A stretch of 64,000 nt of DNA from Antedon mediterranea (GCF_964355755.1 NC_092676.1:8285888-8349887); one strand, 5' to 3'; numbered from the stretch's first letter, positions 1,254 through 42,105 are shown. Translations and numbers: made by a program. Notes: generated by a model not told the origin, from the sequence alone.

Positions 1254-1325
1254 AGTGTTGTCAGTGCTGTCAAACTATCAAATACATTGGCTGGCAATGT
1301 ACTTATTTGGTTATAGTGCAAACGC
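1254..1325 (-). CDS. 72-bp LRR exon RLHYNQISTLPANVFDSLTALTT(L), array 1
   Basis: Minus strand TTTTAAG|G CGT TTG CAC ... ACA CT|GTAAGT; open frame, phase 2/2. Confidence 0.8.
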
Positions 1326-2846
1326 CTTAAAAGTGAAAACAATGTACAGTAAAAATTACAATATGCAAGCTTTATACAACTTTGTTTTACTTTTAGCCAA
1401 TGAGACATTATCTACATAGTAAATGCTGATGAGTATACTTTAATTAGTATAAATAAACTATGTTAAAATAAGTAAAGTATTATTCTCATTAACACAATTT
1501 GTATAACAAATTCTAAATATTTGTTATTTTAATATATCTCTTTAAATCTCTTTAAATGAAGACCAATTTTCAATTATTTATATCTTAAAAAATTGCATAA
1601 TTTATTGATAATTGTTAAATATTTTACTAAAGGTTAGAGTCCAAATACCTTCAATTCAACAATGTACATTAAAAATTACAGTATTCAAGCTGTTCAGAAT
1701 CTCAACTTTTATTTTTCATACACATTTTGAATTATTTGTATAGTCTTTCAGTCAATGATAGGGACATTATCTACATAGTAAATGCTATTGAGTATACTTT
1801 AATTAAGCAAAAATAAACTATGTTAAAATAATTAGAATGTGTTATTGAACATAATTTGTATAACAAATAATAATGATAATGAATATAACCTAATCATAAA
1901 CATTTATTTTTCATATACATTTTGATTTTTTTTATAGTCTTTCAGGGACATTATCTAAATAGTAAATGCTGATGAGCTTACATTAATTAGGCAAAAATAA
2001 ACTGTTAAAATATGAAAAATGTTATTCTCATACACACAATTTCTTAATGTATTTAATAATTTAATAGTTAAATCTTTTTAAAGGAATGTTAAAATATTAA
2101 TAAAGTGTTATTCTCATGAACACCATTACTATAGCAAATTGTAAATATTTGTTACATATTAAAAAAAAGTATTTAATAATAATAATTAAATTTCTTTAAA
2201 TGAAGACCAATTTTCAATTATTTTTATCTTTCAAAATTGAATAATTTATTGATAATTGTTAAATATTTTACTAATGCTAAGTGATTTTTAAAATATATAC
2301 TGTATACTGTATGTTGATTACATTATGAAATGATACAATGCATATATTCATTGTTATCAATTATGTTATTATCAATTAAAAAAAAAAAATTAAACAAAGA
2401 AATTGATATGATCAAAATACTTACAGGGATATCAGTGCTGTCAAACTATCAAATACATAGTTTAGTTACGAGATAGGGACATTATATAAATAGTAAATGC
2501 TGATGATACTTTAATTAGGCAAAAATAAACTGTTAAATTAAGAAAATGTTATTCTCATTAATACAATTGTTTTAGCAAATTCTAAAAATGTGTTATCTTC
2601 TTTAATATATTAATAAAATAATAATTATATATCTTTAAATAATGACCAATTAACAATTAAAATCTTTAAAAAATGAATAATTAATATTGATGGTTAATAT
2701 TTTATTAAACCTAAGTTTTAAAAAAGTATATACTGTATGTATTGATCACATTATGAAATTATACAATTAGGAAGTAATATGAATTATTTTATTATGTATT
2801 TTTACAACAAATTAAACAAAGAAATTGATAAGAGCAAAATACTTAC

Positions 2847-2918
2847 AGATGTGTCAGTGCTGTCAATCTATCAAATACATTGGCTGGCAATGTTCTTATT
2901 TGGTTATTGTACAAATAC
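2847..2918 (-). CDS. 72-bp LRR exon YLYNNQIRTLPANVFDRLTALTH(L), array 1
   Basis: AG acceptor, GTAAGT donor, open frame, phase 2/2. Confidence 0.8.
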
Positions 2919-4009
2919 CTTAAAAGTGAAAACAATGTACAGTAAAAATTACAATATGCAAGCTGTATACAACTTTGTTTTACTTTTAGCCAATGAGACA
3001 TTATCTACATAGTAAATGCTGATGAGTATACTTTAATTAGTATAAATAAACTATGTTAAAATAAGTAAAGTATTATTCTCATTAACACAATTTGTATAAA
3101 AAATTCTAAATATTTGTTATTTTAATATATCTCTTTAAATCTCTTTAAATGAAGACCAATTTTCAATTATTTATATCTTAAAAAATTGCATAATTTATTG
3201 GTAATTGTTAAATATTTTACTAAAGATTAGAATCCAAATACCTTCAAAGTAAAAACAATGTACATTAAAAATTACACCATTCAAGCTGTTTAGAATCTCA
3301 ACTTTTATTTTCGATATAGATTTTTGAATTATTTGTATAGTCTTTGATAGGGACATTATCTACATAGTAAATGCTGATGAGCATACTTTAATTAAAGATA
3401 TATTTTCCCTCTGAAAAATATTCAGAGGGACAATTCAGATATTAATAATGAATAATTTATTTATAATGTTAAACACTTTACCAATGCCAGGTGGTTTTAA
3501 CATTTGTACTTTATATATTGATTAAATTATGAAATAACATTTTTAAAACAAATTAAACAAGGAAATTAATATGATAAAGATACATACAGGGATATCAGTG
3601 CTGTCGAACTATCAAATACATAGTTTAGTTAAGGGATAGGGACATTATATAAATAGTAAATGCTGATGATACTTTAATTAGGCAAAAATAAACTGTTAAA
3701 TTAAGAAAATGTTATTCTCATTAATACAATTGTTTTAGCAAATTCTAAAAATGTGTTATCTTCTTTAATATATTAATAAAATAATAATTATATATCTTTA
3801 AATAATGACCAATTAACAATTAAAATCTTTAAAAAATGAATAATTAATATTGATGGTTTATATTTCATTAAACCTAAGTTTTTAAAAAGTATATACTGTA
3901 TGTATTGATCACATTATGAAATTATACAATTAGGCAGTAATATGAATTATTTTATTATGTATTTTTACAAAAAATTAAACAAAGAAATTGATATGATCAA
4001 AATACTTAC

Positions 4010-4081
4010 AGCTTTGTCAGTGCTGTCAAACTATCAAATACATTGGCTGGCAATGTACTTATTTGGTTACCACCCAAACTC
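4010..4081 (-). CDS. 72-bp LRR exon SLGGNQISTLPANVFDSLTALTK(L), array 1
   Basis: AG acceptor, GTAAGT donor, open frame, phase 2/2. Confidence 0.8.
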
Positions 4082-5704
4082 CTTAAAAGTAAAAACAATG
4101 TACAGTAACAATTACATGCAAGCTGTATATAACTTTTATGTTTTACTTTTAGCCAATGAGACATTATCTACATAGTAAATGCTGATGAGTATACTTTAAT
4201 TAGTATAAATAAACTATGTTAAAATAAGTAAAGTATTATTCTCATTAACACAATTTGTATAACAAATTCTAAATATTTGTTATTTTAATATATCTCTTTA
4301 AATCTCTTTAAATGAAGACCAATTTTCAATTATTTATATCTTAAAAAATTGCATAATTTATTGATAATTGTTAAATATTTTACTAAAGGTGTTAGAGTCC
4401 AAATACCTTCAATTCAACAATGTTCATCAAAAATTACAGTATTCAAGCTGTTCAGAATCTCAACTTTTATTTTTCATACACATTTTGAATTATTTGTATA
4501 GTCTTTCAGTCAATGATAGGGACATTATCTACATAGTAAATGCTATTGAGTATACTTTATTAAGGCTAAAATAAACTGTTAAATTAAGAAAATGTTATTC
4601 TCATGGATGAACACAATTTGTATGACAAATTATTTGTTATCTTAATGTATTAATATAATAATTAAATCCAAATGAAGACCCAATATTATCAATAATATAT
4701 TTGTATATTGTATGTATTGGTCACATTATCTACATAGTAAATGCTATTGAGTATACTTTAATTAAGGCTAAAATAAACTATGTTAAAATAATTAGAATGT
4801 GTTATTGAACATAATTTGTATAACAAATAATAATGATAATGCATATAACCTAATCATAAACATTTATTTTTTATACACATTTTGATTTTTTTTATAGTCT
4901 TTCAGGGACACGATCTAACTAGTAAATGCTGATGAGCTTACATTAATTAGGCAAAAATAAACTGTTAAAATATGAAAAATGTTATTCTCATGAACACAAT
5001 TTCTTACTGTATTTAATAATTTAATATTTAAATCTTTTCAAATGAATGTTAAAATAATAAAGTGTTATTCTCATGAACACCATTTCTATAGCAAATTCTA
5101 ATATTTGTTTTCATATAATAATTATATTAATTAAATCTCTTTAATTAATGACCAATTAACACTTATTACATTATAAAATGATAAAATGCATAATGTTTAT
5201 TTTTATAAAAATATATTGTTATTTATTTTGAAAAAAATAATTAAACATAGAAATAAATAATTGCAAAATACTTTAGGCCTACAGCTAATGTCAGTGTTGT
5301 CAAACTATCAAATACCATGGGCTGGCAATGCACTTATTTGTTGATGTTCATAAAGGAATAACAGTGATATAGTGGTTGGGGTTAAGGTATAAAAAGTGTT
5401 AAAATAAGAAAGGGTCATGAGAAAATTGTAAATATTTGTTACATATTAAGTATTGAATAATAATACTTAAATTTCTTGAAATGGAGACCAATTTTCAATT
5501 ATTTTCATCTCTCAAAATTGAATAATTTATTGATAATTGTTAAATATTTTACTATATTATGCTAAAGTGATTTTTAAAATATAAACTGTATACTGTATGT
5601 TGATTACATTATGAAATGATACAATGATTAATATTCATTGTTTTAAATTATTTTATTTTCAACTTAAAACAAATTAAACAAAGAAATTATTATGAGCAAA
5701 ATAC

Positions 5705-5776
5705 AGTATTGTCAGTTTTGTCAATCTATCAAATACATTGGCTGGCAATGTTCTTATTTGGTTATTCCACAAAGAC
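5705..5776 (-). CDS. 72-bp LRR exon SLWNNQIRTLPANVFDRLTKLTI(L), array 1
   Basis: AG acceptor and open frame; donor weakened to GTATTT by a small deletion. Confidence 0.65.
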
Positions 5777-6170
5777 CTTAAAAGTAAAAACAATGTACAG
5801 TAACAATTACAATAATCAAGCTGTTTGATATGTCAACATTTATTTTTCATATACATTTTAATTTTTGTTATAGCCTTTCAATGACATTATCTACATAGTA
5901 AATGCTGATGAGCTTATAATATGAAAAATCTTGTACAATTTCTTTATAAAATCAAAATATTTGTTATCATCTTAATGTATTTAATAATGTAATATTTAAA
6001 TCTCTTTAAATGAATGTTAAAATAATAAAGTGTTATTCTCATGAACACCATTTCTATAGCAAATTGTAAATATTTTAATAATTATATTAATTAAATCTCT
6101 TTAATTAATGACCAATTAACACTTATTACATTATGAAATGATAAAATGCATAATGTTTATTTTTATTTAA

Positions 6171-7099
6171 TAAAAATATATATATAAATATAAATATATT
6201 TTATTCATTTTTTGTATAAAAATAATCAAAATATGCACATTTTCCATACAATTAGCTTCATAATTAAAAATGTTCAATACAAGTTGGGTAGCAATGGGTA
6301 GCATATTGTGTATGCTTTCATTTGATACCATACAGTTTGTCCATTGGCATTTTAAAGAATAATTTAACACAAAAATGTTTTTTTGGTTGTCATTTTTAGG
6401 TCAAAGGTCAGTAAAAGCATTTCCGGTCATTTTTTCGCTAAAAGTTGTGTTAGACGGAATATAAATATGTATATTCTGAACAATTTGACACAAAAAGAAC
6501 ACTTGAATTATTTAATATTATAAATAAACCAAAATAAATTTACACTATTTAAAATACTCATTTTAATAAAAATAATAAAATATGCACATTTTTAACAAAA
6601 TTAATATAATATTTACAGATTTTTAATACAAGTTGGGTATCAATGGATAGAATATTTTATGGGCTTTCATTTGATACCAAATATTTTTTCCAAACACTTA
6701 AATTATTTAATATTATATAAATAAACATAACAATTACACTCCCAAATATTCATTTTTTGTATAAAAATAATCAAAATATGTACATTTTCCATACAATTAG
6801 CTTCATAATTAAAAATGTTCAATACAAGTTGGGTAGCAATAGGTAGCATATTGTGTATGCTTTCATTTGATACCATTCAGTTTGTCCATTGGCATTTTAA
6901 AGAATAATTTAACCTGAAAATGTGTTTTTTGGGTCAAAGGTCAGTAAAAGCATTTTCAGTCATTTTTTTTGTGTTAGACCGAATATAAATATGTATAAAT
7001 CTGTACGACAAGTGGTTGTCGAGATATAAGAAGCACATATTTTTAACCTTTGACCCTGATTTTGGGCATGTTCGTCCCGGATAGCGAATTTGGCACACA
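6171..7099. mobile_element. Probable DNA-transposon remnant with internal direct repeats
   Basis: 6200-6490 is repeated at 6750-7000, with a third partial copy at 6555-6690; the block interrupts the LRR array abruptly. Confidence 0.4.
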
Positions 7100-8740
7100 T
7101 TCCATGTTGTTCGTTGGGGTCAAATTATCCTATAACAGTTGAGATATTCTCTCCTAAATTAAATGCATACAAATCTGACCCAGGTCCTAGACTATGTGGA
7201 ACACCTTTGAGGTTGCGGACTTTCGGGCAAAATAGCAAGCATTTGGATTTGGTTTCATTAAAAGTAATATCATGGTCACTAGCAAAACCTTCACAGAGTC
7301 CAATTGGGCTTTGTAAGCCAGTCACTGACGGAGCCAAAAGGACCAAGTCATCGGCAAAGCTTAGGCAATTCAGTTTAAGACTGTTAATTTCACAACCTTC
7401 TTTTGACTTAGTCAGTTCAACAGTTAACGGATCAGTGTACACATTGTAAAGTAGAGGGGACATAACGCCTCCCTGGCGAACCCCATTACGAACAGTGAAA
7501 GAATCGGAAACGGAACTTCCCCACCTGACAACAAATTCCTGATTCCTATACCATGACCTCAGTATCTTAACTACAGTTGAAGGGGTACCCCTGTCAATTA
7601 GGGTCTTGAAAAGTGTCCAGTGGTTCACTTTATCAAAGGCTTTGCTAGCGTCCAAGAAACAGCAATAAACTGGGCTACCATGATTGCTGTAATGCTCGAT
7701 AATCTGTTTAAGAGCAAATATACACAATTCGGTTGAGTGACCAGATTTGAAGGCAAACTGGTTGTCATGGGAGTCCAGTGAATTACCACAATGTTGTATC
7801 ATTACAGACTCTAGAAGTTTAGAAGCTACACATGCCAAAGCTATTGGCCGATAATTCCCTTTATCAGTGATATTCCCTGATTTAGATTTAATTACCGGCA
7901 CAAGCGTGACTTTTGTGAGATTACTTGGAACAAACCTGTGAACAAACATAGCCTTAAAACATACACTTAAAATAATACTAAGTCGCTCAGAAGCGAATTT
8001 GAAATGCTCATTGCATAGACCATCATATCCCGCTGCTTTAGCATTGGGCAATTTATCAATTAATAGCTTAATATTATGGGGTGAAACATCAATTTCACCG
8101 TCTGTTCAGTTTTCAAGAGTTTCATTAACAACAGTCTTATGCTCAGATGAGTCAATACTATTAAATAAATCGGAGAAATGTTGACGCCATAGGTCACAAA
8201 TGTCATTTTCCCCCTTAGCACTACCAATAATGTTAGACTGGGAATTGGCGTAGCTGGATTTCTTAACCTTACCCCAGAAACTATTATAGTCCTTATCATC
8301 AAAAGACTTGGCCATCGAGTCCGCCCTTAGCATTTCTTCGTTAGATTTATACTTTCTGAGGGCATTTTTTAAATTATATCTAGTGATTTTCATGTGTTCA
8401 TAGATGTGGCCATATCTGGGTTTACCCAACCCACGCCACTTCAAGAATGCTTCCCGGGCATGTTTATGAAATCCAGCTACTCGGTTATTCCACCCAGGGA
8501 CAACATTGACTTTTTGATTTTTAGTCGACTTAAAACACCACTCAGAACTGACTTTCAGACACTCAATAATATTGTCATATAAATCACTAATATCATTGCA
8601 ATGGCATTCATCTTTACATGAGGAATCATTACAAAGTATACCATCGCAATTGAGAGTAAGGTTACTAAGTAAGGATTCAGTTATCTCATTAAAATTGTTT
8701 ATATCCTCCCTCTTAACATTATTCCAGTTAACTTTGATAA
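7100..8740 (-). mobile_element. Decayed non-LTR retrotransposon (LINE, RTE-X-like) ORF2 fragment
   Basis: ORF 7125-8051 has RT motifs YRPIAL, FLDASKAFD, GVRQGGVMSPLLYNVY and FADD. The upstream part (8106-8444) is frameshifted, and both ends are truncated. Confidence 0.9.
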
Positions 8741-9090
8741 TTTTTTTAAAAAAATGTTATGTACCTTTTTTAAATGTTATTATATTATTTATTATTGTTT
8801 TATTTCAATGAAACTTCGCACCTTCCTTAATTAACTATTGTTCTATTATTATGCAAAATTTTCATTAAAATCAACCCAATGGAACACTTTCAATTTAAGC
8901 ATAAAACATATGTTTTATGAAAATCATACATAATTTACGCCATCTTTTTAACCAATATACTACACAAAATGTTAAAATGTATCTATTTATTTGTCTCAAA
9001 ATAGAAAAACACCAAGGTAATGTAAATAAATATTGTTTCAGCTATCATTTTCTGTAAAAATAAAAAAAATGTTATTTTTCAGCCTTTTAA

Positions 9091-9695
9091 CACGTTCACT
9101 GCCACGGCGTATTTATACGTCAAAAATTGCGTGTCGCTACTTGCCAAGACGTAATACTACGTCAAAATCGTAGCACTTTTGTATTGTATGTAGAATCGCT
9201 GGCAGTGGTGATTGGAACAGGAATTATCGCATGGCAGTTTATGAATGATGTACGTAAACGATAATCTAAAAATAAATGTCATATGTTTGTTTGTGTTTAT
9301 TCCCTCATGCATTGAATATGGTTGATACGATGGCGCCCTCACACTCAATATAATCATCTCAAACATGTCATAAATTGCACTAATAGTAAATAAAAATAAT
9401 AAAGGATGAAATGATTCAGTGTGGTTTACTGTTTTTATCTCTCGATGATAGGTTTGACCGATTTTAGCGCGGAAAATCCCCGACGTATATTTACGTTCCT
9501 GGCAAAGTCAATAAAATTGTTGGACCATTGCCAGTGACGTATTTATACGTCTCAACGGTTTTTCCCGCCATCGTATTTTGAATGACATCATGATAGTCTG
9601 TGACCAGATGTTACACTTTCAAACTGTAATTTAATATGTAAACGGGACTTGGCACTGGGACAGAAATTACGGAAAATGCCTTGGCAGTCAATGTG
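9091..9695. mobile_element. piggyBac-like MITE
   Basis: TTAA|CACGTTCACTGCCA ... TGGCAGTCAATGTG|TTAA: TIRs plus TTAA duplication. Confidence 0.75.
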
Positions 9696-9764
9696 TTAAT
9701 GTTTTTTCTTGTTTCTACAAATCTACAAATGCGATCACTTATGTCAGATTTCGCTTGCATGTGC

Positions 9765-12903: not shown

Positions 12904-12940
<37 letters not shown>

Positions 12941-13460: not shown

Positions 13461-13946
13461 GTTTGGATTTGTGTATACATTTCATTTTAAATAGTATTCA
13501 TACATTTTAACGTTAAAAGGAGATTGGACGCCATATTGGATTCTGGCATGATGATGTCATTGTTATCGACTCAATTTATCAACTACTATGAGAAGTAGTT
13601 ATTAAAGTAAGCCTCGGCTAATTTTAATCATCATAACACAACTCCAAGTAACAAAACCCGTTAATTGGTTTCCCTATCCCCTATATATAGGTATTTGTGT
13701 GTGTTAATAGGCATTTGTGTGCGTTATATAGGCCAAAATTTAAAAGTGCCATACAAAATTTGGGGGATTTTTTTTCTGACATTGTATATGGTATACTCTA
13801 TCAGAAAAACCCAAAAAGAATTTTCCTATACTTTTTTCCCGCACCATGGGTGAGCCACTTGATGGTGATTCTTTGCTTTTTACTAAAACCGTTGTGTCGA
13901 TTTTGTTTTTCCTCGACAAAATAAATAAAATGAAAAGAATAAAAAT

Positions 13947-14037
13947 CTATACTTCTCTTGTTTGTTCATCTTTACATGATGGTTGACAGTAATCAATAAC
14001 GCCTACGAGGCAACACAGTCTTGAACAATCTGTGTCC
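13947..14037 (-). CDS. Terminal exon (L)DTDCSRLCCLVGVIDYCQPSCKDEQTREV*
   Basis: Polypyrimidine acceptor TTTTGCTCTCATAG, phase 2. The LxTDxxxxCC..CxP pattern resembles the hinge that follows the LRRs in type-C LGRs (RXFP/GRL101-like). Confidence 0.7.
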
Positions 14038-17000
14038 CTATGAGAGCAAAAGTAAGCACACAGCAAATGAATGTCAATGATTTTTAGTTTCATTTTAACA
14101 GTGTTCAAACTTGAAGAAAATTTACTATTGTTTGTGTACTTGTTTCTCTTAGATCATAAAGATGGTTTAGAATATTCAAAGATTTTGAAGGTACATTTAA
14201 TTGATAACTATTCTGAATATCAAAATATTATGTGTAGTGTTATATATAATATAAATACACAAAGAATAAGAACATACTATCATGAACTGTAACATTTAAT
14301 CATAATAATTACTTATTAATTTTAATATGTTTATTTTAAATTGAACATAATCTAACATTCAAATTATTAATGTAGATTATTTGACATGATTACTGATAAC
14401 AGCATGCTAAAAATAAAAACTGACAAATTCAATGACAAAATTGAAACTGGTTAAACAACAGTGCCAACATTGTTTTAAAAAAGGTTTTTAAACCTATTAA
14501 AATAGCTGAAAGTTTTTAATGCAAGTTGCCACTGACGTTTTAGACATAAATTGACAAATTATTATATGATAGAACGCCAATAAACAATACATGAATTGAT
14601 TTAATTAACGGATCAATCAAAAGTGTCATGAGGTGTACTACAGTTGAAAATTGACCTCCTGAATGCAGTTGTACGAATTAAATGAAATTCAAATTCTTTT
14701 AAGAATTTAAAAATATTGATTTTCCTTGAAATAATAATAAGAGTAACATTGTGTATGCACACCTGTCATATACTTACAAACGTGTTAAGTTTGTTAATTG
14801 TTCAAAAGTTTTATCTTCGTAATAAAGCAAGCTGTTCCCATATAAAAATCTAAATAATGACAATGATTAGCCATAGTAAATTTTAATTTTAAAAATATTA
14901 ACATTTCAAAATGAAGGGTACTATTACCATGAGTTTAGGTTGTACAGGATGTTAATAACCAAGAGGCTCTTGTACTATAGGATATCATCCTTGTGAAATA
15001 ATGGGTGAAGCCAGAAGGAAAATTGGAATGAATATAATCAATGACAAAAGTACATTGTTGAATGTGTTTTCATTTATAAACTATTTAAACGTACCATTCT
15101 AGCGTTGCAATAAATTAAGTTAAGAATCTTGATGAAAACCTAATACATGTTTACACTTGTTTGCAAAGTTTCTCGTTCAATTCTAGTTGCATTTACATTT
15201 TAGAGTAAATAACTAGCTTTGTAATCCTAATGACAACCTGCAGTTTAAATTATTCCTTAAATAGCTACTTCATGGCATGAGTTATTTAAATTATAAATCA
15301 TATATTAATATTATGAACTTACAAATATGAAAGAGATGAAGCAAAAGAAGAAAATGCACCTGGTTCTATGGTAGTTATAGCATTGTTATCTAAATGCCTG
15401 TTGGGAGATAACCGATATGTATATGGTTTGTTTGTTAATCCTACAAAATTACTATATTATTATTATTCAATTGATTTTAAACAAATCTGTGAAAACAGTG
15501 ATTTACTAATAGACTGGTTATACTACAACAAACAGTGACGTCATTGGATATAAATTAAACAGTACACATTGGATCATATAAGATAAAAAATAACTAAATT
15601 TGTAAAATCAATCAATAAGAATAATTATTATTTAAGCCAAATATTGAATTCTTTCACACCACAACTATTTTAACCAGAAATGTATAATTTTTAACTTACC
15701 ATCAATATTACTATCTAATTTGTTTAATGTCATAATCAAAGTATTGAATTAAACCTTTGTATGATTCCACTGTAAAACTACGCCAATTAAAACATGAAGT
15801 TATTGATGGCGTTATTGTTATAATCTTACAAAAATATTGGTGCTGGTTCAATATTTTATTAAGTTATTTTCTTTATATTTATTTATAATCAATCAATCTA
15901 TAATAATTTATATTAGATGACTACCAAATTATTGGTGCTTGTTCGATATTGTATTAAGTTATTTTCTTTATATTATTTATAATCAATCAATCTATAATAA
16001 TTTATATTAGATGACTACATTTATTTTTTAATTTAACTGTTATTTGTATATGTTGTAAATTCAACAATGCTTTCCTTCTTGCAATCAAGAAAGTTTAATG
16101 AGTAAAATGTATACAACAATGTACAATAGAAAGTAGCTATTTGATGTCAAATTTACTTTTTATAGCAAATTCTATTTATGTTTGTTATTATTATCATCAT
16201 TATGTTTTTAATATTATTATTAAAGATATATTGTCCCTCTGAAAAATATTCAGAGGGACAATTCAGATATTAATAATAAATAATTGATTGATAATGTTAA
16301 ACATTTTACTACTGCCAAGTGGTTTTAAAATGTATACTGTATATATTGATTACATTATGAAATGATAACATTTTAAAAACAAATTAAAGAAGGAAATTAA
16401 TATGAGAAAGATACTTATTACAGGGATGTCAGTGCTGTCAAACTATCAAATACATTGGCTGGCAATGTACTTATTGGGTTTATTGCCCAAATGTCAAGCT
16501 GTTTGATAGGTCAACTTTTATTTTTCATTTTTTAATTAGTTTATAGTCTTTAGTAAAGGGATAGGGACATTATCTAAATAGTAAATGCTATTGAGTATAC
16601 TTTAATTAGACAAAAATAAACTGTTAAAAAAAGAAAATGTTATTCTCATTAATACAATTTTTTTAGCAAATTCTAAATATTTGTTATCTTCTTTAATGTA
16701 TTAATAAAATAATAATTATATATCTTTAAATAATGACCAATTAACAATTAAAATATTTAAAAAATGAATAATTAATATTGATGGTTAATATTTTATTAAA
16801 CCTAAGTTTTAAAAAAGTATATACTGTATGTATTGATCACATTATGAAATTATACAATTAGGAAGTAATATGAATTATTTTATTATGTATTTTTACAACA
16901 AATTAAACAAAGAAATTGTTATGAGCAAAATACTTACAGCCATGTCAGTGCTGTCAATCTATCAAATACATTGGCTGGCAATGTACTTATTTTGTTACCA

Positions 17001-20000
17001 CCCAAATTCCTTAAAAGTAAAAACAATGTACAGTAACAATTACATGCAAGCTGTATATAACTTTTATGTTTTACTTTCAGCCAATGAGACATTATCTACA
17101 TAGTAAATGCTGATGAGTATACTTTAATTAGTATAAATTATGTTAAAATAAGTAAAGTATTATTCTCATTAACACAATTTGTATAACAAATTCTAAATAT
17201 TTGTTATTTTAAAAAACTCTTTAAACCTCTTTAAATGAAGACAAATTTTCAATTATTTATATCTTAAAAAATTGAATAATTTATTGATAATTGTTAAATA
17301 TTTTACTAAAGGTTAGAATCCAAATACCTTCAAAGTAAAAACAATGTACATTAAAAATTACAGTATTCAAGCTGTTTAGAATCTCAACTTTTATTTTTCA
17401 TACACATTTTGAATTATTTGTATAGTCTTTCAGTCAATGATAGAGACATTATCTACATAGTAAATGCTGATGAGCATACTTTAATTAAAGATATATTGTC
17501 CCTCTGAAAAATATTCAGAGGAACAATTCAGATATTAATAATGAATAATTTATTTATAATGTTAAACATTTTACTAATGCCAGGTGGTTTTAACATTTGT
17601 ACTTTATATATTGATTAAATTATGAAATGATAACATTTTAAAAACAAATTAAACAAGGAAATTGATATGATCAAAATACTTACAGCGATATCAGTGCTGT
17701 CAAACTATCAAATACATAGTTTAGTTAAGAGATAGGGACATTATATAAATAGTAAATGCTGATGATACTTTAATTAGGCAAAAATAAACTGTTAAATTAA
17801 GAAAATGTTATTCTCATTAATACAATTGTTTTAGCAAATTCAAAAAATTTGTTATCTTCTTTAATATATTAATAAAATTATATATCTTTAAATAATGACC
17901 AATTAACAATTAAAATCTTTAAAAAATGAATAATTTATATTGATGGTTAATATTTTATTAAACCTAAGTTTTAAAAAAGTATATACTGTATGTATTGATC
18001 ACATTATGAAATTATACAATTAGGAAGTAATATGAATTATTTTATTATGTATTTTTACAAAAAATTAAACAAAGAAATTGATAAGAGCAAAATACTTACA
18101 GATGTGTCAGTGCTGTCAAACTATCAAATACATTGGCTGGTAATGTACTTATTTGGTTACCACCCAAACTCCTTAAAAGTAAAAACAATGTACAGTAACA
18201 ATTACAATATGCAAGCTGTATATAACTTTTATGTTTTACTTTTAGCCAATGAGACATTATCTACATAGTAAATGCTGATGAGTATACTTTAATTAGTATA
18301 AATAAACTATGTTAAAATAAGTAAAGTATTATTCTCATTAACACAATTTGTTTAACAAATTCTAAATATTTGTTATTTTAATAAATCTCTTTAAATCTCT
18401 TTAAATGAAGACCAATTTTCAATTATTTATATCTTAAAAAATTGAATAATTTATTGATAATTGTTAAATATTTTACTAAAGGTTAGAGTCCAAATACCTT
18501 CAATTTAACAATGTACATCAAAAATTACAGTATTCAAGCTGTTCAGAATCTCAACTTTTATTTTTCATACACATTTTGAATTATTTGTATAGTCTTTCAG
18601 TCAATGATAGGGACATTATCTACATAGTAAATGCTATTGAGTATACTTTAATTAAGGCTAAAATAAACTGTTAAAATAAGAAAGTGTTATTCTCATGAAT
18701 GAACTCAATTTGTATGACAAATTATTTGTTATCTTAATGTATTTAATATAATAATTAAATCCCTTTAAATGAAGACCCAATATTATCAATAATATATTTG
18801 TATATTGTATGTATTGATCACATTATCTACATAGTAAATGCTATTGAGTATACTTTAATTAAGGCTAAACTATGTTAAAATAATTAGAATGTGTTATTGA
18901 ACATAATTTGTATAACAAATAATAATGACAATGCATATAACCTAATCATAAACATTTATTTTTCATATACATTTTGATTTTTTTTATAGTCTTTCAGGGA
19001 CACTATCTAAATAGTAAATGCTGATGAGCTTACATTTGTTAGGCAAAAATAAACTGTTACAATTTGAAAAATGTTATTCTCATGAACACAATTTCTTAAT
19101 GTATTTAATAATTTAATAGTTAAATCTTTTTAAATGAATATTAAAATAATAAAGTGTTATTCTCATGAACACCATTTCTATAGCAAATTCTAAATATTTG
19201 TTTTCATATAATAATTATATTAATTAAAACTCTTTAATTAATGACCAATTAACACTTATTACATTATGAAATGATAAAATGCATAATGTTCATTTTTATA
19301 AATTATAGTTTTATTTATTTTGAAAAAAAATTAAACATAGAAATAAATAATTGCAAAATACTTAGGCCTACAGCTTTGTCAGTGTTGAAAAACTATCAAA
19401 TACCATGGGCTGGCAATGCACTTTTTTTTATGTTCATACAGGAATAACAGTGATATAGTGGTTGGGGTTAAGGTATAGAAATTGGTAAAAAAAGAAAGGG
19501 TCATAAGCAAATTGTAAATATTTGTTACATATTAAGTATTTAATAATAATTATTAAATTTCTTTAAATGAAGACCAATTTTCAATTATTTTTATCTTTCA
19601 AAATTGAATAATTTATTGATAATTGTTAAATATTTTACTAATGCTAAGTGATTTTTTAAATATATACTGTATACTGTATATTGATTACATTATGAAATGA
19701 TACAATGCATAATATGCATTGTTATAAATTATTTTATTATCAATTTAAAAAAAAAAATTAAACAAAGAAATTGATATGATCAAAATACTTACAGTCTTGA
19801 CAGTGCTGTCAAACTATCAAATACATTGGCTGGCAATGTACTTATTTGGTTATAGTTCAAATACCTTCAAAGTTAAAACAATGTACAGTAAAAATTACAA
19901 TATGCAAGCTGTATACAACTTTGTTTTACTTTTAGCCAATGAGACATTATCTACATAGTAAATGCTGATGAGAATACTTTAATTAGTATAAACTAGATGG

Positions 20001-23000
20001 TACGCTCGCTTCGCTCGCGTACCATCTAGGTCGTGCCCACAGATGGTTCTCGAATACACAGTAATTTCAGAGTAACAAAACTGGCGATTTCAAATGTACG
20101 TACCGCAGGACTATATACATTGTCGTTTACAGAAACGAATAAATAGACACGATGATTTATGTAGTCAACTAAAATTAGCAACCTGGGAATTACTTCCGAA
20201 GGAGAAACTTATCACAAAATGAGTCCAAGTTTTTGATTTGGACTCATTTAAAGAAACCCAATTTGTGTTTTGTATGTAACATTAGGGTTGAGGGATAGGA
20301 AAGCGAGGTACAAAGAGGAACAATTTTTAAATATATTCTTTATCCACTCAGTAACGAAATATTTTTTTCATGTTTTATAGGCCTATAAATAATATACCTC
20401 TAAATACAGTAAAACATTTGCGATTTAATACTTTTTTTATTTTATTTATTTATTTATTTCTTTTAAATATTCATTGTACACTAATTTTCCCCGTGTATGG
20501 CAAGAGATTCCTAATTATATTAGAGAACATTCTTTATTTAGTTTAGTTAAAACTGTCACTGTCATAATCGATTGAAATATTAAAGTACCATGTCACGATA
20601 CACCACTACGACGTTTATATTTGGTAATTATTAATTAATACAAACGTTGAGAAAGAACTGTCAGTATAAAGTTTATTTGTATATAATAATGTGTTTATAT
20701 ATCTAACAGTAGAGCCTATCCACAATATCGCAAGTTTATTCTGAAAGGGCCCATATATTTACCTACCGTATGTGTTAAACCAAGGGCTCATAAATTTACC
20801 TACAGTACTTGTGTTAAACCAAACTCTGGCAGACTGAGAGATTGGGATGTTTCATTCATCGCAAATCAATAGATTTGTATAATCGTATATTAAATCTATC
20901 AAAATAGTATTTTTTAAAGAAAATCGGCCTGTCTTCAACATTATGATGGTGTACTCTAGCTGTTCAACCGGTTTTCAGCTATTAAAAACAATTATCGTAG
21001 GAGGAGATAGGAAAATGCGAAGCCTCCTCGCATTTTTGTGGCGGGTATTTTTCAAGACGGACATCCATTATACAGTGTATACCACGGTCGGAAAACACCC
21101 CTATTTGGGGCAAATCTTGGAACCTAAATTCGTTTTAACCGTCAATAACTTATTATCTAACTTAATTTAATTAGTAAACAGGGTTACATCAGGTGGTTAA
21201 AATCAGTACCGAGAGTACGAACCAACTTTATATACCATCGAGTAAAAATTCTAGAAGTAAGGCGCGATTTACCGAATTTTGCCCTTACGTAAATTTATAT
21301 ATAGATTTGTTACATATTAAGTATTGAATAATAATAATTAAATTTCTTGAAATGGAGACGAATTTTCAATTATTTTCATCTCTCAAAATTGAATAATTTA
21401 TTGATAATTGTTAAATATTTTACTAATGCTAAAGTGATTTTTAAAATATATACTGTATACTGTATGTTGATTACATTATGAAATGATACAATGATTAATG
21501 TTCATTTTGTTATAAATTATTTTATTATCAATTTAAAAAGAAACTAAACAAAGAAATTGATATGATCAAAATACTTACAGGGATATCAGTTTTGTCAAAC
21601 TATCAAATACATTGGCTGGTAATGTACTTATTTGGTTATAGTGCAAACGCCTTAAAAGTGAAAACAATGTACAGTAAAAATTACAATATGCAAGCTGTAT
21701 ACAACTTTGTTTTACTTTCAGCCAATGAGACATTATCTACATAGTAAATGCTGATGAGTATACTTTAATTAGTATAAATAAACTATGTTAAAACAAGTAA
21801 AGTATTATTCTCATTAACACAATTTGTATAACAAATTCTAAATGTTTGTTATTTTAATATATCTCTTTAAATCTCTTTAAATGAAGACCAATTTTCAATT
21901 ATTTATATCTTAAAAAATTGAATAATTTATTGATAATTGTTAAATATTTTACTAAAGGTTACAGTCTAAATACTTTCAAAGTAAAAACAATGTACATTAA
22001 TCTAATCTGTACAATCTAAACTTTTATTTTTCATGAACATTTTGAATTATTTGTATAGTCTTTCAGTCAATGATAGGGACATTATCTACATAGTAAATGC
22101 TGATGAGCATACTTCAATTAAATAAACTGTTAAAATAAGAAAGTGTTATTCTCATGAATGAACACAATTTGTATGACAAATTATTTGTTATCTTAATGTA
22201 TTTAATTATAATAATTAAATTCCTTTAAATGAAGACCCATTATCAATAATATATTTGTATATTGTATGTATTGATCACATTATCTACATAGTAAATGCTA
22301 TTGAGTATACTTTAATTAAGCAAAAATAAACTATGTTAAAATAATTAGAATGTGTTATTGAACACAATTTGTGTAACAAATAATAATGATTACATTTTGA
22401 TTTTTTTTATAGTCTTTCAGGGACACTATCTAAATAGTAAATGCTGATGAGCTTACATTAATTAGGCAAAACTAAACTGTTAAAATTTGAAAAATGTTAT
22501 TCTCATGAACACAATTTCTTACTGTATTTAATAATTTAATAGTTAAATCTTTTTAAATGAATGTTAAAATAATAAAGTGTTATTCTCATGAACACCATTT
22601 CTATAGCAAATTCTAATATTTGTTTTCATATAATAATTATATTAATTAAAACTCTTTAATTAATGACCAGTTAACAGTTATTACATTATGAAATGATAAA
22701 ATGCATAATGTTCATTTTTATAAATTATATTTTTATTTATTTTGAAAAAAAATTAAACATAGAAATAAATAATTGCAAAATAATTTAGGCCTACAGCTTT
22801 GTCAGTGTTGTCAAACTATCAAATACCATAAGCTGGCAATGCACTTATTTTTTTATGGTCATACAGGAATAACAGTGATATAGTGGTTGGGGTTAAGGTA
22901 TAGAAAGTGTTAAAATAAGAAAGGGTCATAAGCAAATTGTAAATATTTGTTACATATTAAGTATTTAATAATAATAATAATTAAATTTCTTTAAATGAAG

Positions 23001-25273
23001 ACCAATTTTCAATTATTTTTATCTTTCAAAATTGAATAATTTATTTATAATTGTTAAATATTTTACTAATGCTAAGTGATTTTTAAAATATATACTGTAT
23101 ACTGTATGTTGATTACATTATGAAATCATACAATGCATAATATTCATTGTTATAAATTATTTTATTATCAATTTTAAAAACAAATTAGACAAAGAAATTG
23201 ATATAATCAAAATACTTACAGGTATGTCAGTGCTGTCAAACTATCAAATACATAGTTTAGTTAAGAGATAGGGACATTATATAAATAGTAAATGCTGATG
23301 ATACTTTAATTAGGCAAAAATAAACTGTTAAATTAAGAAAATGTTATTCTCATTAATACAATTGTTTTAGCAAATTTAAAAAATTTGTTATCTTCTTTAA
23401 TATATTAATAAAATTATATATCTTTAAATAATGACCAATTAACAATTAAAATCTTTAAAAAATGAATAATTAATATTGATTGGTTAATATTTTATTAAAC
23501 CTAAGTTTTAAAAAAGTATATACTGTATGTATTGATCACATTATGAAATTATACAATTAGGCAGTAATATGAATTATTTTATTATGTATTTTTACAAAAA
23601 ATTAAACAAAGAAATTGATATGACAAAGATACTTACAGTTCTTTCAGTGCTGTCAATCTATCAAATACATTGGCTGGTAATGTACTTATTTTGTTAGAGC
23701 CCAAATGCCTTAAAAGTAAAAACAATGTACAGTAACAATTACAATATTCAAGCTGTTTGATATGTCAACATTTATTTTTCATATACATTTTAATTTTTGT
23801 TATAGTCTTTCAAGGACATGATCTACATAGTAAATGCTGATGAGCTTAAAATATAAAAAATGTTATACAATTTCTTTATAAAATCTAAATATTTGTTATC
23901 ATCTTAATGTATTTAATAATTTAATATTTAAATCTCTTTAAATGAATGTTAAAATAATAAAGTGTTATTCTCATGAACACCATATAGCAAATTCTAAATA
24001 TTTGTTTTCATTTTAACATATTTAATAATTATATTAATTAAATCTCTTTAATTAATGACCAATTAACACTTATTACATTATGAAATGATAAAATGCATAA
24101 TGTTCAGTGTTAAATCTCTTTAAATGAATGTTAAAATAATAAAGTGTTATTCTCATGAACACCATATAGCAAATTCTAAATATTTGTTTTCATTTTAACA
24201 TATTTAATAATTATATTAATTAAATCTCTTTAATTAATGACCAATTAACACTTATTACATTATGAAATGATAAAATGCATATTGTTCAGTGTTGTCAAAC
24301 TACCAAATACATGGGGTGACAATGCACTTATTTATTTATGTTCTAGTCATACAGGTATAGAGTGATATAGTGGTTGGGGTTAGGGTATAGAAAGTGACCC
24401 CACAAAATGAAATTATTTCTGATAACAATAAGTACTAAATTTCAATTGTGCATTATATTTTAATCAATGGGTGCCAATAATAATAATTATATGTATACTC
24501 ATTATTACATATTTTTAAATATATATATTTTAAATTCCATGTTATAGTAGACATACAATGAAATAATTACACTGATAATAACCATATACTTACAATTGTG
24601 TTATTGGAACATGATCATTATACTCGTTGATAGTTGTGATGTTATTAATACTCCATGGAGGACGACATCCCACTTCGTGACGGTCAGCTAGCTGAGTACA
24701 AGTACAATAGGCTGGACATTCTGCTTGTTTAAAGAAAAAGACAACTCAGAGATACGTTTAGGAAAGGGAAAGGGGGGAAATGTATGTATTGTTACAAACG
24801 CAATCTTCCGTCAGTCAGACATGTCTAGCTGTGATAGGCAATTAAACATCAGCTAATAAATTAAATTCACAATCACAAAAACATACAAGTAAATACTGTA
24901 TAGTACTGTAGAATTAAAATTAAATCAGATGTTAAAAGTGAACAAGAGATTTAATTGCCTTTGAATCTTAGTAACAGTAAAGTTTGTAGAGGGTCTACTG
25001 TTAAAAAAGTATAAAAACACAGTATCAAATACCAAACAGCCAATTAATGAAAATAACACACTCGTTGGTATAATCATTATACTGTATTATAGTTATCAAT
25101 GCATAAAGAAAATTGTTAAAAAATGAAGTAATCATATCGGGAAGGGAATTAGAGCTGCTACTATAATACTCACTGACATTGCCACCATCACTATCACTAG
25201 AACAACGAGAACAAGGTAATACAGCCAATATAATAATACAATACAGTAGTATGATTCCTTTCAAGATGAACAT
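13947..25273 (-). CDS. Predicted secreted variable-LRR protein, 274 aa, 10 exons: 25273-25174, 24720-24594, 23708-23637, 21650-21579, 19864-19793, 18171-18100, 17009-16938, 15397-15323, 14849-14778, 14037-13947
   Basis: All introns are GT-AG with compatible phases, giving 825 nt from ATG to TAG without an internal stop. Order: signal peptide MFILKGIILLYCIIILAVLPC, LRRNT CPAYCTC..EVGC, 7 LRRs, cap LDTDCSRLCCL..YCQP. Confidence 0.8.
14778..14849 (-). CDS. 72-bp LRR exon FLYGNSLLYYEDKTFEQLTNLTR(L)
   Basis: TTTAG acceptor, GTAAGT donor, phase 2/2. Confidence 0.8.
15323..15397 (-). CDS. 75-bp LRR exon HLDNNAITTIEPGAFSSFASSLSY(L)
   Basis: CAACAG acceptor, GTAAGT donor, phase 2/2. Confidence 0.85.
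16938..17009 (-). CDS. 72-bp LRR exon NLGGNKISTLPANVFDRLTALTW(L)
   Basis: AG acceptor, GTAAGT donor, open frame, phase 2/2. Confidence 0.85.
18100..18171 (-). CDS. 72-bp LRR exon SLGGNQISTLPANVFDSLTALTH(L)
   Basis: AG acceptor, GTAAGT donor, open frame, phase 2/2. Confidence 0.85.
19793..19864 (-). CDS. 72-bp LRR exon YLNYNQISTLPANVFDSLTALSR(L)
   Basis: AG acceptor, GTAAGT donor, open frame, phase 2/2. Confidence 0.85.
19993..21305 (-). mobile_element. Non-autonomous Helitron
   Basis: Minus strand starts A|TCTATATATA and ends CTAG|T, with the hairpin CTAGATGGTACGC...GCGTACCATCTAG at the 3' end; no TSD. Confidence 0.85.
21579..21650 (-). CDS. 72-bp LRR exon RLHYNQISTLPANVFDSLTKLIS(L)
   Basis: AG acceptor, GTAAGT donor, open frame, phase 2/2. 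Confidence 0.85.
23637..23708 (-). CDS. 72-bp LRR exon HLGSNKISTLPANVFDRLTALKE(L)
   Basis: AG acceptor, GTAAGT donor, open frame, phase 2/2. Confidence 0.85.
24594..24720 (-). CDS. LRRNT exon (K)CPAYCTCTQLADRHEVGCRPPWSINNITTINEYNDHVPITQ(L)
   Basis: Polypyrimidine tract plus CAG acceptor (phase 1), GTAAGT donor (phase 2), CPxxCxC..VxC motif. Confidence 0.85.
25174..25273 (-). CDS. First coding exon, signal peptide MFILKGIILLYCIIILAVLPCSRCSSDSDGGNV
   Basis: AAGATG start, hydrophobic core, and a phase-1 donor CA|GTGAGT that matches the LRRNT exon. Confidence 0.8.
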
Positions 25274-41728: not shown

Positions 41729-42033
41729 TAATATACCATGTTGTACTCTAGGGTTTTTATTTCTGCTGTGTGGGGAAAGAAATCAAATTCCAGTGAGCAA
41801 ACACAACCTCGCCTTGTATATCATCTTGTTCTGTTGCATGGGATATCTGGTCTCACACACCAAACCTTAAATGGTCCAATCTGATCAAATCAATGTTGAA
41901 GGATTCCTGAACCACAATTTAAAAATATATACTGTATGTATTGATCACATAATTAAATGATACAATGCATCATATTCATTGTTATAAATTATTTTATTAT
42001 TTATTTTTAAATAATTAACAATTAAACACTTAC

Positions 42034-42105
42034 AGCCATATCAGTTCTATCAAACTATCAATTACATTGGCTGGCAATACTTATTTTGTTCCAGCCCAAT
42101 ATACC
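42034..42105 (-). pseudogene. Isolated degenerate copy of the 72-bp LRR exon with its intron flank (from 41915)
   Basis: LPANVIDSLIELIW(L)|GTAAGT retained; 2-nt deletion and extra bases in the 5' half. Confidence 0.8.

What the first reader, a model, noticed from the sequence alone, without database searches (positions are those of the whole stretch)
1254..23708. Variation among the nine intact cassette exons is concentrated in concave-face codons
Seen: across the 9 intact 72-bp exons, the framework (L, N, I, TLPANVFD, LT, L) is invariant apart from a synonymous TTG/TTA change and binary Q/K, S/R and A/K swaps. In contrast, position 1 (R,Y,S,S,N,S,Y,R,H), positions 3-4 (HY,YN,GG,WN,GG,GG,NY,HY,GS) and positions 22-23 (TT,TH,TK,TI,TW,TH,SR,IS,KE) change by multi-base non-synonymous substitutions. 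Known: these are the x positions of LxxLxLxxN that line the ligand-binding beta-sheet, and aromatic residues (Y/W/H) are typical of binding surfaces. Inference: diversifying selection or targeted diversification of a binding surface.
Basis: partly seen in the sequence, partly recalled or inferred. Interest (0 to 1): 0.85.

Follow-up and report, generated by a model that had tools for sequence, protein, structure and literature searches.

The report
Receptor gene with fast-changing binding face
A gene from what is probably a feather-star-type animal contains nine near-identical 72-base exons, each encoding one leucine-rich repeat. The five residues per repeat predicted to face the ligand differ about ten times more than the neighbouring introns, which likely reflects selection for new binding specificities, a pattern already known from brown-algal and plant receptors.

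Summary
On the minus strand, nine 72-bp exons (1254-23708) each encode one 24-residue leucine-rich repeat. All have AG/GT splice sites, the same phase and one open frame. 15 of 24 residues are invariant. Variation sits at positions 22, 23, 1, 3 and 4, the five x of xxLxLxx.

Upstream lie a start/signal-peptide exon and a cysteine-cap exon in matching phase. The 3' end lies outside the window.

The exon-intron units are recent duplicates. In a duplicated 3.5-kb block, introns differ 4.2%, framework 4.1% and variable codons 40% (p=2e-13). Among four near-identical units the figures are 3.3% for introns and 38% for variable codons.

The repeat profile matches lamprey/hagfish VLR modules best. However, the modules are spliceable germline exons, not VLR-type donor cassettes.

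Best reading: a germline extracellular LRR receptor gene, probably of a crinoid. It grows by tandem exon duplication, with selection for diversity on the predicted concave face, probably helped by short exchanges between copies.

The pattern is known from brown-algal ROCO genes, which also have 72-bp phase-2 LRR exons. This is therefore a new animal variant of a known kind.

Nothing shows alternative or somatic use of the exons. No RNA data and no 3D model could be obtained.

The parts
25174..25273 (-). Exon 1: ATG at 25273, hydrophobic signal-peptide-like start, ends in phase 1 before gtgagt
   Evidence: Read from sequence. Signal peptide is inferred from the hydrophobic stretch and was not tested with a predictor.
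24594..24720 (-). Exon 2: N-terminal cysteine cap (C-P-x-x-C-x-C-x10-C), LRRNT-like. Tandem acceptor (alternative start 24723). Ends with two bases TT before gtaagt, so it joins in frame to the G that opens every LRR exon.
   Evidence: No Pfam or PDB sequence hit for this exon, so the LRRNT call rests on cysteine spacing and position.
23637..23708 (-). LRR exon E1 (72 nt, phase 2/2)
21579..21650 (-). LRR exon E2
19793..19864 (-). LRR exon E3
18100..18171 (-). LRR exon E4
16938..17009 (-). LRR exon E5
5705..5776 (-). LRR exon E6. Open frame intact, but the donor is changed from gtaagt to gtattt by a 4-bp deletion.
4010..4081 (-). LRR exon E7
2847..2918 (-). LRR exon E8
1254..1325 (-). LRR exon E9, the last seen. 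The gene runs on beyond the window's left edge; no C-terminal cap was found.
2387..24339 (-). Eleven intronic exon relics, all on the coding strand. 3' halves with donor: 23181-23255, 17645-17719, 3549-3623, 2387-2460. Acceptor plus the first ~17 nt: 17311-17365, 3226-3278. Frameshifted or degenerate copies: 24282-24339, 22749-22859, 19327-19428, 5239-5346. 5'-truncated copy: 16380-16493.
42024..42115 (-). Isolated degenerate exon copy (frameshift, in-frame stop) about 17 kb upstream of the gene's start
2461..5912 (-). Three-exon block (E6-E7-E8), duplicate of 16549-19972 (E3-E4-E5), 92.9% identical over 3486 aligned positions
16549..19972 (-). Partner copy of the three-exon block
7125..8105 (-). 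Reverse-transcriptase ORF (retroelement) inside the 10.6-kb intron between E5 and E6
   Evidence: Pfam RVT_1, E = 5.3e-33

Best explanation
This is a germline gene, probably of a crinoid, that likely encodes an extracellular leucine-rich-repeat receptor. Each 24-residue repeat is its own 72-bp, phase-symmetric exon, and the five residues per repeat predicted to line the concave binding face have likely been kept different by diversifying selection.

Shown:
- A start exon, a cysteine-cap exon and nine LRR exons lie on one strand in mutually compatible phases.
- The exon-intron units are recent tandem and segmental duplicates.
- The xxLxLxx codons differ about 10 times more than introns and framework in the youngest duplicates.
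- The exon is a mosaic of variants shared between copies.

Inferred:
- The array grows by unequal crossing-over.
- Short-tract exchange between exon copies (and possibly relics) moves variants around.
- Selection favours arrays whose repeats differ at the ligand-facing positions.
- All exons are normally spliced together into one long solenoid that binds ligand, perhaps microbial, through its concave sheet.

Each hypervariable beta-strand patch would be put together across a splice junction: two residues come from the end of one exon and three from the start of the next.
For: Anatomy. Nine exons have conserved AG/GT sites, all are 72 nt, and all open with G and end with CT, so the split codon is always Leu. 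One open frame of three is shared by all nine. Exon 2 ends with TT before gtaagt and so joins in frame. Exon 1 has an ATG and a hydrophobic leader.

Recent duplication. Two 3.5-kb blocks are 92.9% identical. Four units have flanks differing by 1.6-2.8%.

Excess at positions defined beforehand by the motif.
- Block duplicate: variable codons 18/45, framework 7/171, intron 132/3174, Fisher p = 2.3e-13.
- 18 of 25 exon mismatches fall in 45 of 216 exon sites, p = 5.7e-8. Only 1.3% of 2890 intron windows reach the 11 mismatches seen in two of the three exon pairs, and those windows lie at the block's ragged end.
- Four near-identical units: the exon's sum of pairwise differences is 47, against an intron-window mean of 13.8 and maximum of 40 (0 of 683 reach it). 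34 of the 47 differences lie in the variable codons, p = 5e-14.
- Nei-Gojobori counts: variable codons pN 0.574; framework pN 0.051 and pS 0.040.

Framework constraint across the array. Minimum changes per site are 0.105 for framework against 0.453 for intron.

Mosaicism. The minimum number of recombination events (Hudson-Kaplan Rm) is 12, and 5 of the 12 intervals touch the 72-nt exon.

Face and composition.
- The profile aligns end to end with VLR LRRV modules.
- VLR variable residues lie on the concave sheet (PMC3900441, passages).
- Variable residues here are G7 T7 S6 Y6 H5 N4 R3 K2 I2 W2 E1, of 45.
- An aromatic and Asn bias is reported for VLR concave positions (PMC4552221, passage).

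Same pattern elsewhere. Brown-algal LRR exons show it, with selected sites at x3, x5, x7 and x8 of LxxLxLxxN (PMC3341825, section 22).
Against: - With post-hoc choice allowed, 67 of 286 intron windows match the exon's 15 most variable sites by minimum changes in the nine-copy alignment. The signal rests on the young duplicates.
- In the block duplicate, framework (4.1%) equals intron (4.2%), so purifying selection is not visible on that time scale.
- Several variable-codon states are shared with diverged relics. The E2 state occurs in relics 2387 and 3549, and the E7 state in relics 22749 and 19327. Variable-codon divergence is saturated regardless of intron divergence. The states may therefore be old rather than newly selected.
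- Nothing shows transcription or splicing. E6 has a damaged donor. The 3' part of the gene is unseen.
- The N-cap exon has no Pfam or PDB sequence match.
- No orthologue was found.
- The concave-face assignment is by motif register only, not by a model of this protein.
Confidence: 0.6

Rival explanations
1. Concerted evolution with retention. The variable-codon states would be old. Introns and framework would look young only because gene conversion and unequal crossing-over keep homogenising the units, while selection merely removes conversions that erase differences at the binding positions. No accelerated substitution would be involved.
For: Variable-codon states are shared between intact exons and relics that are about 20-25% diverged. 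Variable-codon divergence is unrelated to intron divergence. Four-gamete violations are dense in the exon. Framework synonymous difference (0.040) is lower than the all-pairs intron difference of 0.08-0.16.
Against: Conversion tracts would have to homogenise sequence on both sides of the 9-nt and 6-nt variable patches at the exon ends while sparing them, repeatedly. In the 3.5-kb block the whole introns, not only the exon-proximal parts, differ by just 4.2%, which fits a single recent block duplication better than patchwise homogenisation. This rival still needs selection for diversity at the same sites.
Confidence: 0.22
2. Splicing repertoire. The phase-symmetric exons would be optional cassettes. 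Different subsets would be included in different transcripts or cells, giving receptors of different length and new junctional beta-strand patches, as reported for brown-algal ROCO genes.
For: Every exon is 72 nt and phase 2/2, so any subset keeps the frame. The variable patch spans the exon junction. Brown-algal 72-bp phase-2 LRR exons show multiple splice variants (PMC11378527, passages).
Against: Eight of nine exons have near-identical, consensus-like splice sites and polypyrimidine tracts, which suggests constitutive use. Docking/selector-type complementarity is not above shuffled controls: at 10-mers, 4 against a mean of 1.93 and a maximum of 10. No RNA data exist for either reading.
Confidence: 0.08
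3. Somatic or targeted diversification. This would be VLR-like copy choice from the intronic relic pool, or enzyme-driven hypermutation of the variable codons.
For: The repeats are VLR-type. Intronic half-exons and degenerate copies form a pool that shares variable-codon states with intact exons.
Against: The germline gene appears complete at its 5' end and each module is a spliceable exon. The differences are in germline sequence. The transition/transversion ratio at variable sites is 124:154, not deaminase-like. No deaminase or other machinery could be looked for, because no genome is held.
Confidence: 0.03
4. Decaying or misassembled array. It would be a pseudogene remnant or a repeat-collapse artefact with no present function.
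For: There are twelve relics, a damaged donor at E6, a retroelement in a 10.6-kb intron, no C-terminal part in view and no RNA support.
Against: Nine of nine exons keep the same single open frame and 15 invariant residues, while the relics show what decay looks like: frameshifts and truncations. Framework changes per site are 4 times fewer than in introns. Short contigs from four independent runs cover all 30 bins in three runs and 21 of 30 in the fourth. This is only weak support, because the contigs are short and repeats attract them.
Confidence: 0.07

Closest known systems
Brown-algal ROCO and other 'shuffling LRR exon' genes (Ectocarpus, Saccharina): PMC3341825 (abstract, sections 15, 22, 27 read); PMC11378527 (passages read)
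   Same: One 24-residue LRR per 72-nt exon, phase 2. Their 'type II' exon has the same register as here (xLxxNxL...LxxL). Inactivated LRR exon copies lie in the introns. The LRR region is a recombination hot spot. Positive selection acts on the concave-face x positions (x3, x5, x7, x8).
   Different: Those proteins are cytosolic GTPases (ROC-COR), kinases or LRR-only proteins of an alga. Here the gene starts with a signal-peptide-like exon and a cysteine cap, and the repeat is of the animal VLR/Slit type. In Ectocarpus ROCO genes many relics lie on the opposite strand; here 21 of 21 copies lie on the coding strand. Alternative splicing is documented there and is untested here. No homology between the two is implied.
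Variable lymphocyte receptors of lampreys and hagfish (LRRV modules, germline donor cassettes)
   Same: The 24-residue module consensus is the best match in the PDB: VLRs and VLR-derived repebodies dominate the hits, with single modules aligning 1-24. Variability is confined to concave beta-strand positions (PMC3900441, passages). Aromatic and Asn-rich variable residues are reported there too (PMC4552221, passage).
   Different: VLR genes are incomplete in the germline and are assembled somatically from unspliced flanking cassettes (PMC12264053, PMC3900441, abstracts). Here every module is a conventional exon in a gene whose 5' part appears complete. Connecting peptide, LRRCT and stalk are unseen. 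The organism is not a vertebrate.
Germline VLR-like / Slit2-N-type LRR receptors of amphioxus (Bf66946, PMC4731796; FrLRR, PMC10199209; passages read)
   Same: Invertebrate deuterostome. LRRNT plus 24-residue LRRV-type repeats, germline-encoded. Ligand (bacteria) binding occurs through the concave face. Exon shuffling of LRR exons is invoked.
   Different: Those have 2-9 repeats. In the passages I read, no tandem array of near-identical exon-intron units and no hypervariable-codon test against introns is described.
Plant R-gene / NLR LRR domains with hypervariable solvent-exposed xxLxLxx residues
   Same: The same five motif positions carry the excess of non-synonymous change. Tandem duplication and unequal crossing-over occur.
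   Different: Repeats are usually not one per exon. Different LRR class and kingdom.
Arthropod Dscam clusters of duplicated, mutually exclusive exons (recalled; mentioned in a PMC11378527 passage)
   Same: Tandem arrays of duplicated exons of equal length encode variants of a binding module.
   Different: Dscam exons are mutually exclusive and are governed by docking/selector RNA pairing. Here the exons are in-frame and additive, and no such pairing exceeds chance.

Membership tests
Agnathan VLR | 24-residue LRRV-type module (xLxLxxNQLxxLPxGVFDxLTxLxxL) | tested here: met
   A profile of the nine exons matches VLR A/B/C and repebody modules over positions 1-24, with E down to 3.5e-25 for whole chains.
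Agnathan VLR | Incomplete germline gene completed somatically from non-spliced donor cassettes | tested here: not met
   Each module is flanked by a conserved acceptor and donor in a common phase, and follows a start exon and a cap exon in phase.
Agnathan VLR | LRRNT cap at the N-terminus | tested here: inconclusive
   Four-cysteine spacing C-P-x-x-C-x-C-x10-C read from sequence. No Pfam or PDB sequence hit.
Agnathan VLR | Connecting peptide, LRRCT and GPI/stalk at the C-terminus; CDA-type deaminases in the genome | not testable with these tools
   The gene leaves the window at its left edge, and no genome is held.
Brown-algal type 'shuffling LRR exon' arrays | One LRR per 72-nt exon, phase 2 | tested here: met
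   Nine of nine exons are 72 nt and open with the third base of a split codon. Compare PMC11378527 (passage) and PMC3341825 (section 15).
Brown-algal type 'shuffling LRR exon' arrays | Inactivated exon copies within the introns of the LRR region | tested here: met
   Eleven relics lie between the exons.
Brown-algal type 'shuffling LRR exon' arrays | Exon copies on the non-coding strand (ROCO loci) | tested here: not met
   21 of 21 profile hits are on the minus (coding) strand.
Brown-algal type 'shuffling LRR exon' arrays | Excess non-synonymous change at concave-face x positions | tested here: met
   Tested by counts against introns, not by codeml.
Brown-algal type 'shuffling LRR exon' arrays | ROC-COR GTPase (or kinase / NB-ARC) partner domain; alternative splicing of the LRR exons | not testable with these tools
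   The 3' part of the gene is outside the window. No RNA holder was listed, and the laid contigs showed no splice joints.
Dscam-type mutually exclusive exon cluster | Docking site complementary to selector sequences upstream of each variant exon | tested here: not met
   10-mers complementary to the upstream flank of at least 5 of 8 exons: 4 observed; shuffles mean 1.93, maximum 10.
Slit-type extracellular LRR domain (LRRNT-LRRs-LRRCT) | LRRCT cap closing the array | not testable with these tools
   Not present in 1-1253; the gene continues off the window. That Slit genes have one 72-bp exon per LRR is recalled, not tested.

The most novel reading that the evidence does not exclude
A non-chordate deuterostome carries VLR-type LRRV modules as an array of symmetric, interchangeable exons whose hypervariable beta-strands are assembled across splice junctions. 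Variable exon inclusion, or exchange with the intronic pool of half-exons, would give each animal or cell a repertoire of receptors. This would be an exon-based forerunner or parallel of the lamprey cassette system.
Probability: 0.07. Interest if true: 0.85.

Novelty: new variant of a known kind. Interest (0 to 1): 0.45.

Why it matters
If the reading holds, crinoids, the earliest-branching living echinoderms, have an extracellular receptor gene built from VLR-type repeat modules. The gene is being enlarged by exon duplication and diversified on its binding face.

This would be an animal counterpart of the one-repeat-per-exon receptor arrays known from brown algae. It would add a data point on how LRR-based recognition diversity is made in deuterostomes outside the vertebrates. 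It would also name a concrete candidate immune receptor to test in an understudied group.

It does not, as it stands, show any new diversification mechanism.

Tried and rejected
RNA evidence. The look-up of sequencing runs listed 13 runs and no RNA holder. One run is only guessed to be RNA.
- The second, on 15900-24500 with four runs, returned only short contigs (the longest listed pieces are 100-386 nt). None of the 15 joints shown links two exons; 218 joints were not shown.
- It therefore gives no information on splicing or expression.

Own genome. None is held, so there is no copy census, no 3' end of the gene and no search for deaminases.

Homologues.
- The 24-residue alignment was too short for the search for homologous proteins.
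- The 53-aa open frame holding E9 found 2 of 15 candidates, both long metagenome proteins.
- The HMMER scan of 1.84 billion representatives gave 1559 hits at E <= 0.001. The top 150 are proteins of 495-7992 aa with many repeats.
- 10 of these were looked up and none has a name. The two that I read have a similar ...STLPAGVFDxLTxL... repeat in uninterrupted metagenome ORFs, probably prokaryotic.
- This is motif likeness, not orthology.
- The cap-exon frame found no candidate at all, no Pfam family and no PDB relative.

Other tests.
- Dscam-like docking/selector pairing is not above shuffles.
- Deaminase-type mutation bias is not seen.

Structure. The spliced protein is not a contiguous reading of the window, so it was not submitted for folding. 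The sites were mapped by motif register only.

Earlier scan notes. None exist for this genome or for look-alike sequence.
Full report
OBSERVATION

The window is AT-rich (20-39% G+C in 2-kb bins) and eukaryotic. A six-frame search for the core motif found 11 minus-strand copies and one chance-like plus-strand hit. A nucleotide profile built from the nine intact copies found 21 hits, all on the minus strand: nine full-length (E <= 4e-41) and twelve partial.

The nine intact units are 23637-23708, 21579-21650, 19793-19864, 18100-18171, 16938-17009, 5705-5776, 4010-4081, 2847-2918 and 1254-1325. I call them E1 to E9 in gene order. Their outer limits are exactly the finding's coordinates.
- Each is 72 nt and is preceded by a pyrimidine-rich tract ending in aag.
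- Each opens with G and closes with CT.
- Each is followed by gtaagt, except E6, where a 4-bp deletion leaves gtattt.
- Only one of the three frames is open, and it is the same frame in all nine.

The protein alignment has 15 invariant columns of 24. The only other changes are Q/K, S/R, S/R, A/K and one synonymous TTG/TTA.

THE GENE

Upstream on the same strand lies an ATG at 25273. It is followed by a hydrophobic leader and a gtgagt donor after 25174, in phase 1.

A second exon (24594-24720, with a tandem acceptor three bases further up) completes that codon. It encodes a four-cysteine cap with the spacing C-P-x-x-C-x-C-x10-C. It ends with the two bases TT before gtaagt, so it joins in frame to the G that opens every LRR exon.

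All phases therefore fit one transcript: leader, cap, then at least nine repeats. The cap has no Pfam or PDB sequence match, so calling it LRRNT rests on cysteine spacing and position. No C-terminal cap lies in 1-1253, so the gene leaves the window.

Because the exon boundary falls inside the codon of the middle leucine of xxLxLxx, each hypervariable strand is made of the last two residues of one exon and residues 1, 3 and 4 of the next.

THE ARRAY

The exons sit in tandemly repeated exon-intron units of 1.1-2.1 kb, with nested similarities of 67-97%.
- A three-exon block (2461-5912; E6-E8) is a 92.9% copy of 16549-19972 (E3-E5).
- Four units (E4, E5, E7, E8) share both flank types and differ by 1.6-2.8% in the 250 nt on each side.
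- The introns hold eleven exon relics on the coding strand: half-exons with an intact donor, acceptor-plus-17-nt stubs, and frameshifted copies.
- One more relic lies at 42024-42115.
- A retroelement (RVT_1, E = 5e-33) sits in the 10.6-kb intron between E5 and E6.

IS THE VARIATION MORE THAN NEUTRAL?

Over all nine copies, mean pairwise difference is 0.51 at the 15 variable-codon sites, 0.046 at the 57 framework sites and 0.08-0.16 in the flanks. Minimum changes per site are 1.73, 0.105 and 0.453 respectively, and 0 of 100000 draws of 15 intron sites reach the observed total.

A control against my own reading weakens the nine-copy contrast. If each intron window may choose its own 15 most variable sites, 67 of 286 windows match the exon by minimum changes, though 0 of 286 match it by diversity. 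This happens because the flanks fall into deep classes.

The young duplicates are decisive, and there the positions are defined beforehand by the LRR motif.
- In the duplicated block, introns differ at 132/3174 sites (4.2%), framework at 7/171 (4.1%) and variable codons at 18/45 (40%). Fisher p = 2.3e-13.
- 18 of the 25 exon mismatches fall in 45 of 216 exon sites (p = 5.7e-8).
- Only 1.3% of 2890 intron windows reach the 11 mismatches seen in two of the three exon pairs. Those windows lie at the ragged end of the block.
- Among the four near-identical units, intron difference is 0.033 per site per pair and variable-codon difference is 0.378. No intron window of 683 reaches the exon's total, and 34 of 47 exon differences are in the variable codons (p = 5e-14).
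- Nei-Gojobori counts give pN 0.574 at the variable codons, against pN 0.051 and pS 0.040 in the framework.

The framework equals the intron rate in the block comparison, so purifying selection shows only at the scale of the whole array.

HOW THE DIFFERENCES AROSE

The exon is a mosaic. The four-gamete test gives a minimum of 12 recombination events (Hudson-Kaplan Rm) over about 570 aligned columns, and five of the twelve intervals touch the 72-nt exon.

Variable-codon states are shared between intact exons and older relics. The 3' state of E2 recurs in two half-exon relics. That of E7 recurs in two degenerate relics. E4 and E8 share one, and E4, E5 and E7 share the codon 3-4 state.

The 'multi-base substitutions' are thus at least partly exchanged or inherited states, not fresh point mutations. 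Transition/transversion counts at these sites (124:154) give no sign of a deaminase-type process.

WHICH FACE?

The five positions are the x of xxLxLxx. A profile of the nine exons aligns end to end with single LRRV modules of lamprey and hagfish VLRs and of VLR-derived repebodies, which make up most of the best PDB matches. In VLRs, variable residues lie predominantly on the concave beta-sheet (PMC3900441, passages).

The residues used here are G7 T7 S6 Y6 H5 N4 R3 K2 I2 W2 E1, of 45. This resembles the aromatic and Asn-rich bias reported for VLR concave positions (PMC4552221, passage).

I could not fold the spliced protein, so the mapping is by register, not by model.

ORGANISM AND RELATIVES

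An intronless 383-residue TPBG-like LRR membrane protein at 52053-53201 has one relative in the protein search besides itself: 'trophoblast glycoprotein-like' of the crinoid Anneissia japonica, at 59% identity. Hence 'probably a crinoid'.

No orthologue of the LRR gene was found. Searches with the frame holding E9 returned only long, nameless, many-repeat metagenome proteins with a similar motif. The cap exon found nothing.

No RNA holder was listed, and the laid contigs were too short to show splicing.

MECHANISM AND RIVALS

Best reading (0.6). This is a germline extracellular LRR receptor gene. Its repeat array grows by unequal crossing-over between exon-intron units. Variants are moved by short exchanges. 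Selection keeps the ligand-facing residues of the repeats different. The exons are spliced together into one solenoid.

Rivals:
- Old variable states retained while everything else is homogenised (0.22). This rival also needs selection at the same sites.
- Optional inclusion of the symmetric exons, giving a splicing repertoire (0.08). No docking/selector signal was found, and splice sites are uniformly strong.
- Somatic or enzyme-targeted diversification (0.03).
- A decaying or misassembled array (0.07). The nine intact frames and the invariant framework speak against it.

COMPARISON AND NOVELTY

The closest known system is the brown-algal set of LRR genes. In these, each 24-residue repeat is a 72-nt, phase-2 exon, the introns carry dead exon copies, the LRR region is a recombination hot spot, and x3, x5, x7 and x8 of LxxLxLxxN are positively selected (PMC3341825, sections 15, 22, 27; PMC11378527, passages).

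This locus behaves like those, but it is an animal gene with a leader, a cysteine cap and VLR-type repeats, and all its relics are on the coding strand.

It is not a VLR in the defining sense, because its modules are spliceable exons of a gene whose 5' part appears complete. Germline VLR-like and Slit2-N-type receptors are known from amphioxus (PMC4731796, PMC10199209, passages).

Earlier notes of this scan (unchecked) describe similar one-repeat-per-exon arrays in several protists, a fungus and a sea squirt. That lowers the novelty of the pattern itself.

My three literature searches listed no report of such an array in crinoids or other echinoderms, but I saw listings only:
- 15 of 158 papers listed;
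- 7 of 7 listed;
- 12 of 112 listed.

A Tetrahymena paper (PMC6564038) appeared in a listing and was not read. That Slit and glycoprotein-hormone-receptor genes have one roughly 72-bp exon per LRR is recalled, not checked. Supplementary tables of the algal papers were not read.

VERDICT

Selection for diversity on the predicted binding face is well supported. 'Cassette' use and targeted diversification are not shown. This is a new animal variant of a known kind, of moderate interest.

Noticed in passing
52053-53201 (+): Intronless 383-residue type-I membrane LRR protein: leader, cysteine caps, LRR_8 (E = 3.7e-12), transmembrane stretch and a short tail. Its only database relative besides itself is 'trophoblast glycoprotein-like' of the crinoid Anneissia japonica (59% identity). 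This is the basis for the organism guess.
   Followed up: partly
1-999 and 26287-27288: Inverted copies, 97.6% identical, bracket the whole visible part of the LRR gene. The right copy lies about 1 kb upstream of the ATG. A related ORF fragment also lies near 30038-30280 (-). Probably a dispersed repeat.
   Followed up: partly
19918-21352: This stretch of the E2-E3 intron draws contig depth hundreds of times that of its neighbours in all four laid runs, so it is a high-copy repeat of these genomes. It holds a 95-aa ORF with no Pfam match.
   Followed up: no
7125-9507 (-) and 9768-11181: Retroelement with a reverse-transcriptase ORF (RVT_1) and adjacent ORFs in the 10.6-kb intron. 9768-11181 is 78.8% like 33076-34439.
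   Followed up: no
54110-55314 (+): Two ORFs of 143 and 164 residues have no Pfam match. They have the look of a transposon-derived gene, but this is unconfirmed.
   Followed up: no
23928-24111 / 24110-24293: 184-bp tandem duplicate, 99.5% identical, in the intron between the cap exon and E1, next to a degenerate exon relic.
   Followed up: no
24720-24725 (-): Tandem (NAGNAG-type) acceptor at exon 2. Both sites keep the frame and would differ by one residue.
   Followed up: no
proteins P0009-P0158 (not in the window): Metagenome proteins of up to 7992 residues carry dozens of repeats with almost the same ...STLPAGVFDxLTxLxxL motif as VLR-type modules. They are probably prokaryotic surface proteins. 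The motif likeness is striking, but no relationship is shown.
   Followed up: partly
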